Below, one piece after another: positions 3,919 through 14,428 of a stretch of DNA of 44,262 nucleotides; the stretch's first letter is position 1; each line of letters starts with the position of its first letter. Below the pieces are notes generated by a model, which saw only the letters and a program-made list of their open reading frames with translations, searched no databases and was not told the DNA's origin. Source of the stretch: an uncultured archaeon (lineage in GTDB: Archaea > Asgardarchaeota > Thorarchaeia > Thorarchaeales > Thorarchaeaceae); contig CAYYQL010000019.1 of assembly GCA_964473825.1 (NCBI GenBank), positions 1 through 44,262 on the forward strand, in the 5' to 3' direction. A program made the position numbers and the translations under genes.

Positions 3919-4211
3919 GGATGAAGCTCCTCGTCATCTATGATATCACCGATGATCCTCTGCGAGGCAAGGTGGCCAACCGGCTCAAGGACTACGGGCT
4001 TGAACGGATCCAGTACAGCTCGTTCCAAGGAGAGTTGCGCCGCCACGAGCTCGCCTCGCTTGAGAAAGATATGCGAAAACTCCTGAATGACGGGGAAGAA
4101 ACTGACTCTGTACTGCTCTTTCCTCTCTGCAGTTCGTGCTTTGAGGGACGTCACATGGTGGGAGCAGAGAAGGAGATGAAGGAACGTGAAACGGGAGTCT
4201 CGTTTTACTGA
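3912..4211 (+). CDS. cas2: CRISPR-associated endoribonuclease Cas2 (start probably ATG 3921)
   Basis: LVIYDITDD...RIQYSSFQG motifs; follows cas1. Confidence 0.96.
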   Translation: MVRMKLLVIYDITDDPLRGKVANRLKDYGLERIQYSSFQGELRRHELASLEKDMRKLLNDGEETDSVLLFPLCSSCFEGRHMVGAEKEMKERETGVSFY

Positions 4212-4824
4212 GTTTACAGATGCTGGAGAAGGCTACATCACGCCCACGGATATCAAGCAGTACGTGTTCTGCCCTCGGGTGACCTATTTCACAAAAGTAA
4301 TGCAGCTCCGACCGATTGTCGGTTCGCAACAGGACGCAGCGAAAAAGAGTCATGATCGACTTGCTCAATTGGAGAAGCGCCGCGAGTCGATATTGAAGAC
4401 TGACATTCCGGTTGAGATAGAGTCCAAGAGCTTCGAGGTGTATCTGCGATCAGAGAGACTGCAGGCTCATGGTGTGTTGGATATGCTTGTTGTGACAACA
4501 GATGGTGAGCACATCCCTATAGAGTTCAAGGCCATGTCAAGCAATCGAGGAGCAATCCTTCTTGACCACAAATATCAGCTCGTCCTTCTTGCCCGTCTTC
4601 TTGAACACTCACGCGATGTGATTGTTCGAAGAGGTTTTGTACACTATATGAACGACGACCAGACCGTTAAGCTTGTCATGACTGATAATCTGCGAGGGCG
4701 GGTGAAGACATACACCGATAGGATCAGCAACATGCTTAGAGAGGGGACGATTCCAGCGCCACGAGCGAGATGTCAGTATGGGCGCGTGGGATGTGGATTC
4801 GCAGATAGATGCGCCGACTTCTAG
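4186..4824 (+). CDS. cas4: CRISPR-associated exonuclease Cas4
   Basis: KQYVFCPR, GVLDML...PIEFK, YQL motifs and a C-terminal Cys cluster (4Fe-4S). Confidence 0.93.
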   Translation: MKRESRFTEFTDAGEGYITPTDIKQYVFCPRVTYFTKVMQLRPIVGSQQDAAKKSHDRLAQLEKRRESILKTDIPVEIESKSFEVYLRSERLQAHGVLDMLVVTTDGEHIPIEFKAMSSNRGAILLDHKYQLVLLARLLEHSRDVIVRRGFVHYMNDDQTVKLVMTDNLRGRVKTYTDRISNMLREGTIPAPRARCQYGRVGCGFADRCADF

Positions 4825-4919
4825 AATAATACGCTATCCTCTGTTTTCTAGTTGCATTGTCTGACAGAAGTGTCAGATCTCCCTCTTGCCTGCTCCAGGA
4901 TGCCTTGTGTTGTAGAGGC

Positions 4920-4927
4920 TTAAATAG
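4920..4927 (+). promoter_or_regulatory. Putative TATA box for the intergenic structured RNA
   Basis: TTAAATAG, the same motif as in the array 2 leader, ~30 nt upstream of the RNA's closing helix. Confidence 0.5.
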
Positions 4928-4949
4928 GTTCCATCAGATTGAGGAGTGG

Positions 4950-5423
4950 ACTAGGCAAGTGGGCCAGTGCGATAGCGCGGAGCTCGCGGCCGAAAGCCCG
5001 AGGGAAGTCCACGATTTCTCGACGGAGGTCCTCACTCTCCATGAAAGGGGCTGCATCAGCTCCCGGAGAGTCCGCGGCTGTTCACCCTGCTCAATCGAGC
5101 CTTGCTGCCTTCGGTGACGGAGCCAGCAAGGGTGATGATGAACCCGCCGTGGCAAAGACTGTGGAAAGCCTCACTGTGGCTGAGAGTGATGCCTCAGGGC
5201 ATGCACAGGAGGAGGAAACCCGGACTGTGGGAGGGATTCCATCCCGATGACCACGGACAAAGGCCCTGCTGACCCAGCGATCTTCGGGTTTGCTGGGGGC
5301 GGTGACGCTGGCAGGGGACGGGTGGAACACAGAAGTCTCAGACAGATGAGGTCACTCAATCTGTCAGAGACAGTTTATTCTAGAGTATGAGATTCCACAG
5401 ACACTGGCCCACCGGTTTTGATG
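4950..5423 (+). ncRNA. Putative large (~460 nt) structured ncRNA between cas4 and cas10d; family unassigned (partial RNase P-like motifs)
   Basis: 11-bp closing helix GTGGGCCAGTG(4959-4969)/CACTGGCCCAC(5402-5412), many nested helices, GUGA and UUCG tetraloops, canonical K-turn at 5225-5256, and no convincing ORF. Confidence 0.7.
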
Positions 5424-5558: not shown

Positions 5559-8216
5559 GTGATGTCCATGGTACCCACTACGACGGATGAGCAGTTTGAT
5601 ATTCTTGAGGAGGGCCTGATAACAGAAGCTCTGACGAGAAGATGGGACATCAAGTATGCCAAGTTCGCAAAGGACGGCAGCCAGTCGCTCTTTGTCCACG
5701 CCCTCAATACATCATACGTTGCCAGAATTCTCGGACAGCACGTATTCGACCTTGAGGGAGATGATCTCTTGCTTGTTTACTTGAGCGGATTCCTGCACGA
5801 TTACCAGAAGGCAGAAGACTCTTGGCAGGAGGCAGCTGTGGCATTCATCAAAGGCAACAGACCCGATGATGCTGCATTCGCACACGACGATGGATCAGAA
5901 GATGCAAGAGTACGCTTGAGAGAGATTCTTGAGAGAGTTCAGGAAAGTGCGACAAGCCATGGAGTTGCCCTCGACATCGTCGCCCTTATCGACCGCATTC
6001 TCAATATTGTGGTGTATACTCACGACAGCAAGAATCCGGCAGAGGGGGGACGGCGAAAGAGGCAGGTGGGCCCGATTGACCAGATTGCCAGAGTCATACG
6101 ACTGGCAGATGCAATAGCGAGCATCCGGCAACCACGCGAAATCCTGAAGAAAGCAGATGATTTGGATATGCCTGAGGGAAGACAACTCTCATTCGACTAC
6201 CACGAGATATCTGTGGTCAGAGGGCTGGTCACCAGCTTCCTCAACGAAGCGATTGTTGAATCCATGGAGGAACTTGGATATATCCCGCTGCTCCATTTTG
6301 GTGCCGGGAGTGTATATCTCTACATTGGAGAACAGAGAGAAAATCTCGATTTCGCCACTATCATCAAGGACAAACTTGACAGACAGGTAGAAGCGTTCCA
6401 AGACTCTGATGCATATGAAACGGGGATGACGAATGCAGTCATTGGCCCTCTTGTTCAGACGAAGTGGCCTGCCATTCATCTTGTGCGAGAAAAGGACATT
6501 CCTGAGATCATCAGCTACCTTTCTTCTCTTCCGGCCATGAACAAGGATGAGAAATACGGCAGGGGTGTGGCAAAGAAGGCAAAATCAGCTGAGAAGAAAG
6601 GCGCATTGGAAGTGTTTCTGAAGAATACAGGTTCAGACACTGACCCCATACTCGCGATGATGACCTCAGACTTCAACCTTCTCGTGTATGTTGCAGATTT
6701 CCTCAAGAGTTATGCTGCTTTCGCGGAAGAGGCAGATCGACTTGACGAATTCGTCCGAGATGTCGATGGTTTCCTCTCAGAGGAGTTTTCCGATCTGGCA
6801 CTAGAATCTCTCAGCGATATCACACATACCACCGGATTCATCCGTCGTCTAGAAGCTGTGTCAACCATCTGGAACCTGGAAGAAGGCGGTCTTCACCGAG
6901 ACCCTGACAGAAGGAAGCGTCTTGAGAAGGCGTTCATACGGATTCTCCGTGAGATTCTCACCAAGTATGGGAGTTGCGCCCCCAAGCTGCTGACAGACCG
7001 TGCCAAGAACTTGCTTATCTCGGATGTTCGCTATCTGCCTTTCTCAGTTCTTGACGACAAGGAAATTAGAGACCTCAGTGAGGGGCCCTCTGACAGATAC
7101 CTCAGAGGAAAGGATCAGAAGAAACGGATATGTAGTTTCTGTGGCGCAGAAGGGGCAGATGATGCACCGGCCACGTTGTTCGGTGACGGTTCGCAGCGCT
7201 TCTCAAACTTCCTGAAAGCGGGAACGAAAATCGGCGCAGGAAGAAAGGCTCAGGTCTGTGAGGTCTGCATGGTTGAGTCAATGCTCAGAGCATTCTACTT
7301 TCCCTCAGCTCCTGCTACGACGATGGTAGTGATTCCGGATTTGTCGCTGTCGCCAGCAATGGCCCGACAATGGGCGAATGCAGTCAAAGACTTCTCCAAG
7401 CGTGAGAGAGTCGGCCTGAGTACAGGCTCAGTATGGAATATGCTTGATGTTTACAAGAGACTTGCCAGAGGGAAGACAATCAACAATGCTTCGCAACTGG
7501 TAAGCTTGCTGAGACCAACCAACACTCGCGTGAAGGCCCTTGTATCGCATCTGAAGAATGTCAGAAGCAGTCCCGAAGAGGTCATCTTCGAAGGTGAACT
7601 AGACTCGGAGGATGAACAGACCTTTGAGAGAATCGCACATGCTCATCTTTCTGGAGATATCAGGATACACGACAGGCTTCTTGAGGGGTACAAGAAACCA
7701 AACAGGATTCAGGGAACAGCATACTTGACTTCTGGGCACATGTTTCTGTTCTTCCGAAATCCCCTCTATGAAGATCGGGACGAGTCACCGAGTACAATCG
7801 CAATTCGAGCGCATCTCTTGGCACTGATTATAGCCAAGATTTACCATGCACGGGTCATCGTCATCGATGGCTTCCAGGCCATTACGGATATCTCAATGGA
7901 CGGTGTTGTGAAATCGACTCTGCCGGCACCCGCTGCATCTGCTCTTAGAAGCCTGGGAGTGAGCGAACAACCACGACTACATGAAGTGATGCCGGCACTG
8001 AGGAAGCTGTCAGCTTTGACCCAGATAACGATGAGCTACGTCAAGAAGATGGGGAAGGATCGCCTCCTTCGGATGGGGTCGATGAATCGTGGCGCAATCT
8101 TGAGGCGTGCTCAGATGGAAGATTCACAACAAGTGAAGAAATACCAGAGGCAGTTCGTCGAGCTGCTGGACGTTCTCCCTGCAGCGGCAGGAGAGGACGA
8201 ATTTGCATCAACTTAG
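5559..8216 (+). CDS. cas10d: Type I-D large subunit Cas10d (Csc3) with N-terminal HD nuclease
   Basis: SLFVHALN...GFLHDYQK...LADAIAS HD-domain motifs; CSFCG...CEVC zinc finger; upstream of csc2 and csc1. Confidence 0.88.
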   Translation: MMSMVPTTTDEQFDILEEGLITEALTRRWDIKYAKFAKDGSQSLFVHALNTSYVARILGQHVFDLEGDDLLLVYLSGFLHDYQKAEDSWQEAAVAFIKGNRPDDAAFAHDDGSEDARVRLREILERVQESATSHGVALDIVALIDRILNIVVYTHDSKNPAEGGRRKRQVGPIDQIARVIRLADAIASIRQPREILKKADDLDMPEGRQLSFDYHEISVVRGLVTSFLNEAIVESMEELGYIPLLHFGAGSVYLYIGEQRENLDFATIIKDKLDRQVEAFQDSDAYETGMTNAVIGPLVQTKWPAIHLVREKDIPEIISYLSSLPAMNKDEKYGRGVAKKAKSAEKKGALEVFLKNTGSDTDPILAMMTSDFNLLVYVADFLKSYAAFAEEADRLDEFVRDVDGFLSEEFSDLALESLSDITHTTGFIRRLEAVSTIWNLEEGGLHRDPDRRKRLEKAFIRILREILTKYGSCAPKLLTDRAKNLLISDVRYLPFSVLDDKEIRDLSEGPSDRYLRGKDQKKRICSFCGAEGADDAPATLFGDGSQRFSNFLKAGTKIGAGRKAQVCEVCMVESMLRAFYFPSAPATTMVVIPDLSLSPAMARQWANAVKDFSKRERVGLSTGSVWNMLDVYKRLARGKTINNASQLVSLLRPTNTRVKALVSHLKNVRSSPEEVIFEGELDSEDEQTFERIAHAHLSGDIRIHDRLLEGYKKPNRIQGTAYLTSGHMFLFFRNPLYEDRDESPSTIAIRAHLLALIIAKIYHARVIVIDGFQAITDISMDGVVKSTLPAPAASALRSLGVSEQPRLHEVMPALRKLSALTQITMSYVKKMGKDRLLRMGSMNRGAILRRAQMEDSQQVKKYQRQFVELLDVLPAAAGEDEFAST

Positions 8217-13477: not shown

Positions 13478-14428
13478 GTGGAAATGTATCTCATTCCTGA
13501 GAATGTGAAGAGGAGGCTGTTGAGACGGTATCGAAAGAGGTCTCGCGAAGTAGTTGTGGATGAGAGGTTCAGAGGGTGGTCATGGGAGTATCCGCCTCTC
13601 GACCCGCCGTACGACATCCATCTCTCCCTCAGCGAGCTTGCCGGCAGATACTGTGAATCGATGCGCGATATCTATCTGAAGCATGTTGAGGGAATAAAGA
13701 AGCCCACAACAGCCAAGATGATCATGGGAGGACTCTATCACGAGATTGTGGCCCTTGTCTTCGAGAATGCAAAACGCGGCCTCTACAGCCTAGGTCAGGT
13801 GACAGGTACAGAACTCGGCAACCATCTCACAGAGATTCGTGATGACGTCATCGAGGACATGATGAACAAGACCAGAAAGCCGGACGTCACTGACCGCGGC
13901 GGGGGGTGGAACCCTGAGACCATCAGCACGAACCTCGCATGGCTCTGGGACTACGCAGTCAGCCAGATTATAGCATCCGTTGATCGCGTTCGAGCTGACC
14001 AACCGTATATCGGTCTTGATGCTCTCGTAAGCACTGCCTTGCCCATCGTTGTGGAACAAAAGCTCGACGGAAGAAATCTTGGATTGAGTGGCTACCTCAG
14101 CGCTGATGCCTACGGTTCTGAGGGTGTGGTCATGGACATCAAGACGGGGCGAAAGTGGCGATTTCACAGGCTTGCCACAACTGGATATGCCCTGGTGATT
14201 GAGAGTATTCACGAATATCCGGTTGACGTTGGTTGTATCATCTATTGCTGGTTAGAAGGAGCCCCCAAGCCCACAGTCAAGTACGAGGTGCACAGCATTG
14301 ATGAGCCATTACGACAAGAATTCATCGAGAACAGGGATGATGCCATGAAGATAGTATATGACGAACGTGATCCAGGGTTACCGACAAAGTGCTATGAGGA
14401 TTGTCCGTACTGGCACCACTGTCACTGA
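13478..14428 (+). CDS. csa1: Cas4-family protein Csa1/Cas4a
   Basis: RGWSWEYPPLDPP...LSELAGRYCESMRDIYL, DIKTG, GYALVIES and terminal CYEDCPYWHHC. Confidence 0.87.
   Translation: MEMYLIPENVKRRLLRRYRKRSREVVVDERFRGWSWEYPPLDPPYDIHLSLSELAGRYCESMRDIYLKHVEGIKKPTTAKMIMGGLYHEIVALVFENAKRGLYSLGQVTGTELGNHLTEIRDDVIEDMMNKTRKPDVTDRGGGWNPETISTNLAWLWDYAVSQIIASVDRVRADQPYIGLDALVSTALPIVVEQKLDGRNLGLSGYLSADAYGSEGVVMDIKTGRKWRFHRLATTGYALVIESIHEYPVDVGCIIYCWLEGAPKPTVKYEVHSIDEPLRQEFIENRDDAMKIVYDERDPGLPTKCYEDCPYWHHCH

What the first reader, a model, noticed from the sequence alone, without database searches (positions are those of the whole stretch)
4920..5423. Large, highly structured ncRNA candidate embedded between the adaptation and I-D effector operons
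Seen: the 730-bp gap contains TTAAATAG (4920) and a perfect 11-bp closing helix (4959-4969/5402-5412) followed by TTTT. Inside are CGCGGA/TCCGCG, CTCTCC/GGAGAG and GGGGCT/AGCTCC helices. There is a three-way junction (TCACC/GGTGA, GCTC/GAGC, CTTGCTG/CAGCAAG capped by GUGA), a CTGTGGAA/TTCCACAG helix, a C(UUCG)G hairpin at 5273-5297 and a long hairpin at 5335-5371. A textbook K-turn (CTGTGG-GA-GGGAT/ATCCC-GAT-GA-CCACGG, 5225-5256) suggests L7Ae binding. Some motifs recall RNase P RNA conserved regions in order (GAGGGAAGTCC, TGCACAG..GAAACC, GGGTGGAAC, CTAGAGTATGA, ACAGA), but the canonical P4 pairing and spacing do not fit. Established: type I-D systems have no known large accessory RNA. Inference: an undescribed Cas-associated RNA or ribozyme, or a highly diverged RNase P-like RNA.
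Basis: partly seen in the sequence, partly recalled or inferred. Interest (0 to 1): 0.85.

Follow-up and report, generated by a model that had tools for sequence, protein, structure and literature searches.

The report
Mini-transposon carrying oversized TnpB guide RNA
The folded RNA is real, but it is neither part of the CRISPR system nor an RNase P. It is a 553-bp gene-less jumping element of Asgard archaea that landed at the end of cas4 and keeps only a promoter and the unusually large (about 430 nt) probable guide-RNA scaffold of a TnpB nuclease.

Summary
The structured RNA is real: 94% of cells pair and 51 of 92 pairs show two-sided changes in 38 copies. There is no Rfam match. The housekeeping RNase P RNA lies elsewhere, and only 1 of 103 loci carrying the RNA has cas genes. 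Bases 4826-5378 are a mobile element flanked by TCTAGA on both sides, multicopy in this genome and matched in 25/36 family genomes (Thorarchaeota). A same-genus genome has the empty cas4-cas10d site. The 'closing helix' and three other cited features use host flank. In full 7.6-8.3-kb parents the RNA overlaps the last ~100 codons of tnpB and ends at the right end, opposite a giant Cas1-fold gene: the published, untested aCas1-TnpB loci. RNA-only copies gained TATA boxes (38/56 vs 3/44) and often lost the reading frame. Best reading: a standalone omega RNA whose guide is the 3' flank. The K-turn is conserved. Transcription, TnpB binding and the transposase are not shown. The scan noted this family before on other genomes.

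The parts
4186..4824 (+). Host cas4; its stop codon lies inside the left hexamer, so the gene is intact
   Evidence: Pfam Cas_Cas4; ORF list
4820..4825 (.). Left copy of the target/core hexamer TCTAGA (a 7-bp repeat if T4819/T5378 is included)
4826..5378 (+). Non-autonomous RNA-only element, 553 bp
   Evidence: Copies on C102 (92%) and C12 (93%) share the right boundary exactly; C102, C84, C48, C76 and C3 share the left one; empty site in G002
4826..4880 (+). Left end with repeated TGTCAGA motifs (4860-4866 inverted, 4871-4877 direct); putative transposase sites
   Evidence: Same motif cluster at the left end of full elements L073, L074, L113; function inferred
4920..4926 (+). Archaeal TATA box about 25 nt before the conserved 5' boundary of the RNA
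   Evidence: TATA-like in 38/56 RNA-only copies, 3/44 tnpB-linked copies and 1/104 control windows
4948..5378 (+). Conserved structured RNA of about 430 nt; predicted TnpB omega-RNA scaffold
4948..5250 (+). Relic of the last ~100 codons of tnpB, overlapping the RNA; the stop codon coincides with the K-turn GA
   Evidence: tblastn 69.7% over 99 aa to TnpB of L113; alignment A3
5092..5112 (+). Codons of a PIP-box-like motif (Q-x-x-L-x-x-F) in the TnpB tail
   Evidence: Q invariant in 20/20; in frame in 29/35 tnpB-linked copies; PCNA binding not tested
5082..5135 (+). Conserved three-way junction with GYGA-capped arm
5225..5256 (+). Standard K-turn (3-nt bulge 5246-5248; GA at 5231-5232 and 5249-5250)
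   Evidence: helices 12-13
5335..5378 (+). Terminal hairpin with the TCACTCA loop motif, and the right end
   Evidence: motif noted in PMC10691335
5379..5384 (.). Right copy of the hexamer TCTAGA (host-derived)
   Evidence: Present once at the empty site
5379..5404 (+). Predicted guide: host 3' flank, matching the empty cas4-cas10d junction
   Evidence: Inference from ISDra2 reRNA (PMC8612924); unique in the genome
5393..5412 (+). Host flank that happens to pair with this copy (8 + 11 bp); not part of the conserved structure
5559..8216 (+). Host cas10d, first gene of the I-D effector operon
   Evidence: TIGR03174; 72% DNA identity to G002

Best explanation
Bases 4826-5378 are an internally deleted derivative of a Thorarchaeota transposon whose full form (7.6-8.3 kb) carries a giant Cas1-fold gene and, divergently, a ~560-aa TnpB. 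SHOWN: the element moved as a unit into the TCTAGA site at the cas4 stop codon. It keeps the two ends, a TATA box and the ~430-nt structured region that in parents overlaps the 3' end of tnpB and stops at the right end. That region is under selection for RNA structure, including a K-turn. INFERRED: it is transcribed from the TATA box as a standalone omega RNA (scaffold plus ~16-25 nt of 3' flank as guide), folds with host L7Ae, and loads in trans onto a TnpB of the same clade. TnpB would then cut the empty cas4-cas10d allele left by excision, favouring repair from the filled copy. Mobility is supplied in trans, most likely by the Cas1-fold protein. Its place in the CRISPR locus is incidental. 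Own odds by step: mobile element 0.97; RNA is the TnpB guide scaffold 0.8; this copy transcribed 0.75; a compatible TnpB is present in this cell 0.5.
For: Multicopy with sharp shared ends; empty site; the same hexamer on both sides of full, RNA-only and 160-172-bp mini elements. The RNA follows all 27 loci of the 544-612-aa TnpB group where the downstream DNA is present, and none of 8 loci of the ~720-aa TnpB group, although both groups have the giant gene. It also follows tnpB copies with no intact giant gene nearby, so it tracks the TnpB clade. TnpB keeps RuvC-I D243, alternative E404, RuvC-III D438 and the zinc finger, the rearranged site described in PMC10691335. Covariation. RNA-only copies gain TATA boxes and lose the frame: intact in 20/53 vs 31/35. 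The giant protein's N-terminus has a Cas1 fold: top 12 rows all Cas1, Z 9.2-13.2, next row 6.9. The position matches ISDra2 reRNA, and standalone omega RNAs are known.
Against: The scaffold is almost three times the ~150-nt ISDra2 reRNA. Because the hexamer is on both sides, it is unclear what TAM would separate empty from filled sites. The two intact TnpBs of this clade in this assembly are only 55-60% identical to the TnpB of the nearest complete element, and their RNAs are diverged; a cognate parent may be unassembled, since several ends lie at contig breaks. PMC10691335 suggested an internal guide upstream of GTTCACTCA instead. In this copy the flank is predicted to out-compete two conserved helices if it is transcribed. 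Copies are related, so the counts overstate independence, and my TATA pattern was written after seeing examples.
Confidence: 0.82

Rival explanations
1. The RNA serves transposition itself: a scaffold that links TnpB, the Cas1-fold integrase and L7Ae and helps choose the target, rather than only guiding a nuclease to empty sites.
For: Very large scaffold. The left hexamer tracks the left-end subfamily, and the right one usually matches it. No serine recombinase was found in G000-G003, G013, G027 or G035, and no Y1 transposase in G000, G002, G003 or G027.
Against: 160-172-bp mini elements with the same ends move without the RNA core. Sibling insertions share no flank similarity beyond the hexamer. 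The giant gene also occurs with the other TnpB group, which lacks this RNA.
Confidence: 0.08
2. The structure is a cis element of the tnpB message (processing, stability or translational control through L7Ae) or a passive relic; RNA-only copies are simple MITEs with no function in trans.
For: The first 300 nt overlap a coding tail kept open in 31/35 tnpB copies. The region before tnpB holds an inverted copy of the 3' motif that could pair with it.
Against: Several RNA-only subfamilies with unrelated upstream sequence each have a TATA box at the same distance. Pairing and the K-turn persist while the frame decays.
Confidence: 0.06
3. A Cas-associated accessory RNA of the type I-D system, or a copy domesticated by this CRISPR locus.
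For: It sits between cas4 and cas10d with a promoter facing the effector operon; this copy has a unique 19-bp pairing with its flank.
Against: Only 1 of 103 loci has cas genes; the orthologous site is empty in G002; no anti-repeat; it is 92-93% identical to copies at unrelated sites.
Confidence: 0.02
4. A diverged RNase P RNA or other ribozyme.
For: Short motif look-alikes and a K-turn, as in archaeal RNase P RNA.
Against: The canonical copy is elsewhere and RF00373 does not hit here; no Rfam family matches at E<=1, and two parent loci give only chance-level hits; the motifs are unconserved or host flank.
Confidence: 0.02

Closest known systems
aCas1-associated TnpB loci of Asgard archaea (Cas1H-Asgard-1/-2; Altae-Tran et al. 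2023, PMC10691335, citing Makarova et al. 2020, which I could not open)
   Same: Cas1-fold giant gene beside tnpB, two TnpB groups, flanking repeats, and the conserved GTTCACTCA motif downstream of tnpB.
   Different: That paper notes only the short motif and guesses an internal guide. It does not describe (main text; supplement not read) the 430-nt fold, the K-turn, the TCNNGA junctions or promoter-bearing RNA-only derivatives. Here the stretch before the motif is a hairpin arm, which favours a 3'-flank guide.
TnpB reRNA/omega RNA of ISDra2 (Karvelis et al. 2021, PMC8612924) and standalone omega RNAs (PMC10691335)
   Same: RNA overlaps the tnpB 3' end, ends at the transposon right end with variable flank beyond, and occurs as mobilised copies without protein genes.
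   Different: About 430 nt versus about 150 nt; K-turn; overlap with a ~100-aa tail bearing a PIP-like motif; hexamer repeated at both junctions instead of a TAM on one side; no Y1 transposase.
IS607-family elements
   Same: Short repeated motifs at both ends and a lineage-linked central dinucleotide, reminiscent of core-matched recombination (IS607 mechanism from my own knowledge).
   Different: No serine recombinase in the three complete elements. The IS607 TnpA genes found in relatives have other ends, and those examined in context lie beside the ~720-aa TnpB group.
Archaeal RNase P RNA (RF00373)
   Same: Size range, K-turn, a few short purine-rich motifs.
   Different: No covariance-model hit, no P4, multicopy and mobile; the real gene is on contig C3.

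Membership tests
TnpB omega RNA (reRNA) | Overlaps or follows the tnpB 3' end and ends at the transposon right end | tested here: met
   27/27 loci of the clade; boundary at 5378
TnpB omega RNA (reRNA) | Conserved secondary structure followed by a variable flank | tested here: met
TnpB omega RNA (reRNA) | Partner TnpB with RuvC triad and zinc finger | tested here: met
   D243, alternative E404, D438, four Cys; Pfam and PDB hits
TnpB omega RNA (reRNA) | Is transcribed, binds TnpB and guides TAM-dependent cleavage | not testable with these tools
   Needs RNP purification and a cleavage assay
aCas1-TnpB loci (Cas1H-Asgard) | Parent element pairs tnpB with an Asgard Cas1-like gene | tested here: met
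   Complete elements L073, L074, L113; Cas1 fold Z 13.2, rmsd 4.1, 193 aligned
aCas1-TnpB loci (Cas1H-Asgard) | GTTCACTCA-type motif downstream of tnpB | tested here: met
   window has the variant at 5351-5358
aCas1-TnpB loci (Cas1H-Asgard) | aCas1 is the transposase; assignment to group 1 or 2 | not testable with these tools
   Untested in the literature read; reference sequences for the two groups were not at hand
IS200/IS605 | Y1 TnpA in the autonomous element | tested here: not met
   None in three complete elements; none found in G000, G002, G003, G027
IS200/IS605 | Insertion 3' of a fixed motif without a repeat at the right junction | tested here: not met
   Hexamer on both sides, once at the empty site
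IS607 | Serine recombinase TnpA in the autonomous element | tested here: not met
   action in trans from an unassembled gene is not excluded
IS607 | Core-matched crossover and repeated end motifs | tested here: inconclusive
   Repeats present; central dinucleotide equal on both sides in 13/15 and 11/15 and lineage-linked
Archaeal RNase P RNA | Match to RF00373; P4 pseudoknot with conserved regions I and V | tested here: not met
Archaeal RNase P RNA | The genome's housekeeping single copy | tested here: not met
   Canonical gene on C3; this element is multicopy
Cas accessory RNA (tracr-like) | Conserved linkage to cas genes | tested here: not met
   1/103 loci, with flanks of about 0.5-10 kb; empty site
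Cas accessory RNA (tracr-like) | Anti-repeat | tested here: not met
   Longest match to the repeat is 7 nt
Standard K-turn | 3-nt bulge, tandem G-A/A-G, flanking C and NC stems, conserved | tested here: met
Standard K-turn | L7Ae binding | not testable with these tools
   Inference from the motif

The most novel reading that the evidence does not exclude
The 430-nt, K-turn RNA is the hub of a new kind of ribonucleoprotein transposition machine in which TnpB, a Cas1-type integrase and host L7Ae (with PCNA via the TnpB tail) act together, so that a Cas1-family enzyme and an RNA-guided nuclease cooperate in choosing or re-occupying sites without a CRISPR array.
Probability: 0.1. Interest if true: 0.85.

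Novelty: new variant of a known kind. Interest (0 to 1): 0.45.

Why it matters
It removes a false lead: type I-D needs no large accessory RNA here, and this is not a second RNase P. What remains is useful. The aCas1-TnpB elements of Asgard archaea are catalogued but, in the papers I could read, untested. This analysis supplies what a bench test needs: RNA boundaries, a covariation-supported fold, a probable L7Ae requirement, both transposon ends, the TCNNGA site, an empty allele, and natural 550-bp and 165-bp mini substrates. That makes two open questions testable: whether a Cas1-fold protein outside casposons is a transposase, and how a TnpB uses a scaffold almost three times the size of ISDra2's.

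Tried and rejected
Rfam: nothing at E<=1 in the window; only chance-level hits in two parent loci. Sequencing runs: no RNA holder listed; no conclusion drawn and no reads laid. Giant protein: Pfam, ESM Atlas features (top 0.77, no usable lead), PDB sequence search and hhalign to the window's Cas1 (probability 1%) were uninformative; Foldseek ranked Cas1 first but at E>0.1; only the exhaustive structural search was clear. Pseudoknot between loop 5184-5189 and 5352-5357: possible by sequence, but without two-sided changes, and some copies lack the 3' loop, so not claimed. Group I intron reading: rejected, no Rfam hit and no conserved upstream core. Aloposons are a different element. Makarova 2020 was not held. 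Searches for Thorarchaeota with TnpB gave 0 papers, and aCas1 with Asgard gave 1. CRISPR spacers of this array do not target the element. No complex prediction was run: a PIP-like peptide would pass by likeness to solved structures.

Full report
Setting. The window holds a CRISPR array (36 repeats), cas1-cas2-cas4, a 734-bp gap, and a type I-D operon starting with cas10d. A contig of a same-genus genome is a Ca. Thorarchaeota record, so the host is an Asgard archaeon of that group.

Observation. No Rfam family matches. The genome's RNase P RNA is on contig C3 (151.9 bits, E 6e-45), and that model does not hit this locus at E<=10.

It is a mobile element. The region matches 25 of 36 family genomes, often many times per genome, and none of 24 more distant genomes searched. 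In this genome, copies on C102 (92%) and C12 (93%) stop at exactly 5378. C102 and four end fragments start at 4819-4820. In G002 the orthologous cas4 stop codon is followed directly by the sequence found here after 5380 (23/24 identical) and then by cas10d. The element is therefore 4826-5378, with TCTAGA on each side; cas4 and cas10d are intact. The same ends bound three size classes: complete elements of 7,648, 8,181 and 8,296 bp, RNA-only elements of 540-565 bp, and 160-172-bp minis. Only 1 of 103 loci carrying the RNA has a cas gene, namely this one, and the RNA has no anti-repeat.

The parent. In 44 of 103 copies the RNA is preceded by the RuvC-III motif of TnpB. These TnpBs keep D243, a glycine at the canonical RuvC-II position with a conserved alternative E404, D438 and a zinc finger, the rearranged, probably active site of PMC10691335. 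Opposite tnpB lies a 1,500-1,960-aa gene. Its N-terminal 360 residues model well (pLDDT 87) and match Cas1: the top 12 rows are all Cas1, Z 9.2-13.2, and the next row is 6.9. This is the aCas1-TnpB arrangement of PMC10691335; I took that lead from an earlier scan note and tested it here. The giant gene pairs with two TnpB groups. The RNA follows all 27 loci of the 544-612-aa group with downstream DNA and none of 8 of the ~720-aa group, so it tracks the TnpB clade, not the giant gene.

Structure. An unbiased mutual-information scan of 88 copies ranks Watson-Crick pairs on top. For a 92-pair model, 94.4% of cells pair and 51 pairs show two-sided changes; slid controls give 40-47% (the model was derived from these sequences, and kin are not independent). 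Supported: a 5' domain closed by 4948-4952/5027-5031, the 5034-5071 arm, 5072-5078/5146-5152 enclosing the three-way junction, and 5159-5163/5328-5332 enclosing three arms, one with the K-turn, followed by the terminal hairpin. Both K-turn GA steps are kept in 52/53 RNA-only copies. They dominate the single-sequence fold, but the 11-bp pairing occurs in 1 of 39 copies. Random 45-mers give it 0.45% of the time, which is roughly a 16% chance over 39 copies, so chance suffices.

Expression signal. RNA-only copies have a TATA-like box 16-36 nt before the conserved 5' boundary in 38/56 cases, against 3/44 tnpB-linked copies and 1/104 shifted windows (pattern written after inspection). Their upstream sequences fall into several unrelated subfamilies. 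The tail frame is intact in 31/35 tnpB-linked but 20/53 RNA-only copies. What is kept in the short elements is thus the RNA and a promoter, not the peptide. Transcription itself is not shown.

Mechanism. By analogy with ISDra2, whose ~150-nt reRNA matches the tnpB 3' end and right end plus ~16 nt of flank that act as guide (PMC8612924), and with standalone omega RNAs that work in trans (PMC10691335), I infer a standalone guide whose target is the empty cas4-cas10d junction. PMC10691335 suggested an internal guide before GTTCACTCA; in these copies that stretch is a hairpin arm, so I favour the flank. Open points: (i) the TAM, since the hexamer is on both sides; (ii) the cognate TnpB, since the two intact ones here are 55-60% identical to the nearest parent's; (iii) the transposase. 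No serine recombinase was found in G000-G003, G013, G027 or G035, and no Y1 enzyme in G000, G002, G003 or G027, while the giant gene is present in all of them. IS607 TnpA genes in relatives have different ends. The giant protein is the best candidate but is unproven. The left hexamer tracks the left-end subfamily and usually equals the right one (13/15; 11/15), which fits either core-matched recombination or subfamily-specific target preference.

Verdict. Real RNA, wrong identity. It works like a TnpB omega RNA and meets every testable feature of that class; it fails the tests for RNase P RNA, Cas accessory RNA, IS200/IS605 and IS607. The parent loci are published but untested; the RNA's size, fold, K-turn and RNA-only derivatives were not found described in the papers searched. 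The scan reported the same family on other genomes. New variant of a known kind; interest 0.45.

Noticed in passing
window 5092-5112; alignment A3: The ~100-aa TnpB tail that overlaps the RNA carries a PIP-box-like motif (Q invariant in 20/20, Q-x-x-L/I/M-x-x-F/Y in frame in 29/35), suggesting PCNA recruitment. PMC3971601 shows a PCNA motif in an archaeal IS200 transposase.
   Followed up: partly
upstream of tnpB in L073, L074, L107, L112, L113 and others: Between the divergent genes lies an inverted copy of the GTTCACTC motif inside a hairpin flanked by TATA-like boxes; it could pair with the RNA's 3' hairpin or form a small separate RNA.
   Followed up: partly
left ends: The central dinucleotide of the hexamer follows the left-end subfamily across species; in two cases a relative or the opposite junction has its reverse complement.
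   Followed up: partly
G000 contigs C2, C3, C6, C82: 160-172-bp mini elements made only of the two ends; one such unit is nested in the left end of the complete element L113.
   Followed up: partly
L181, L190, L178, L182; G000 C1 near 113.7-114.3 kb: IS607 serine-recombinase genes with a different set of ends; L181 and L190 adjoin giant-gene elements of the ~720-aa TnpB group. This genome has only a deleted TnpA-TnpB fusion of that type.
   Followed up: partly
L033, L107, L108, L111: Several tnpB-RNA copies with worn right ends abut tRNA-like sequence, suggesting tRNA-site insertion or domestication.
   Followed up: no
L113:6804-7544, L074:4367-5038, L131:3400-4053: A 218-247-aa ORF with no convincing Pfam family lies between tnpB and the giant gene in some elements.
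   Followed up: no
giant protein, alignment A2, residues about 399-436: Conserved E-D-ExK pattern of a PD-(D/E)XK nuclease after the Cas1 domain, seen by eye in the consensus.
   Followed up: no
window 5393-5412: If transcribed, this copy's flank is predicted to displace two conserved helices, which could silence this guide; probably chance.
   Followed up: partly
window 5130-5145: A second conserved TGATNATGA stretch between two stems may be another L7Ae site.
   Followed up: no
window 13478-14428: A Csa1-family (Cas4-like) gene follows cas6 in this I-D operon.
   Followed up: no
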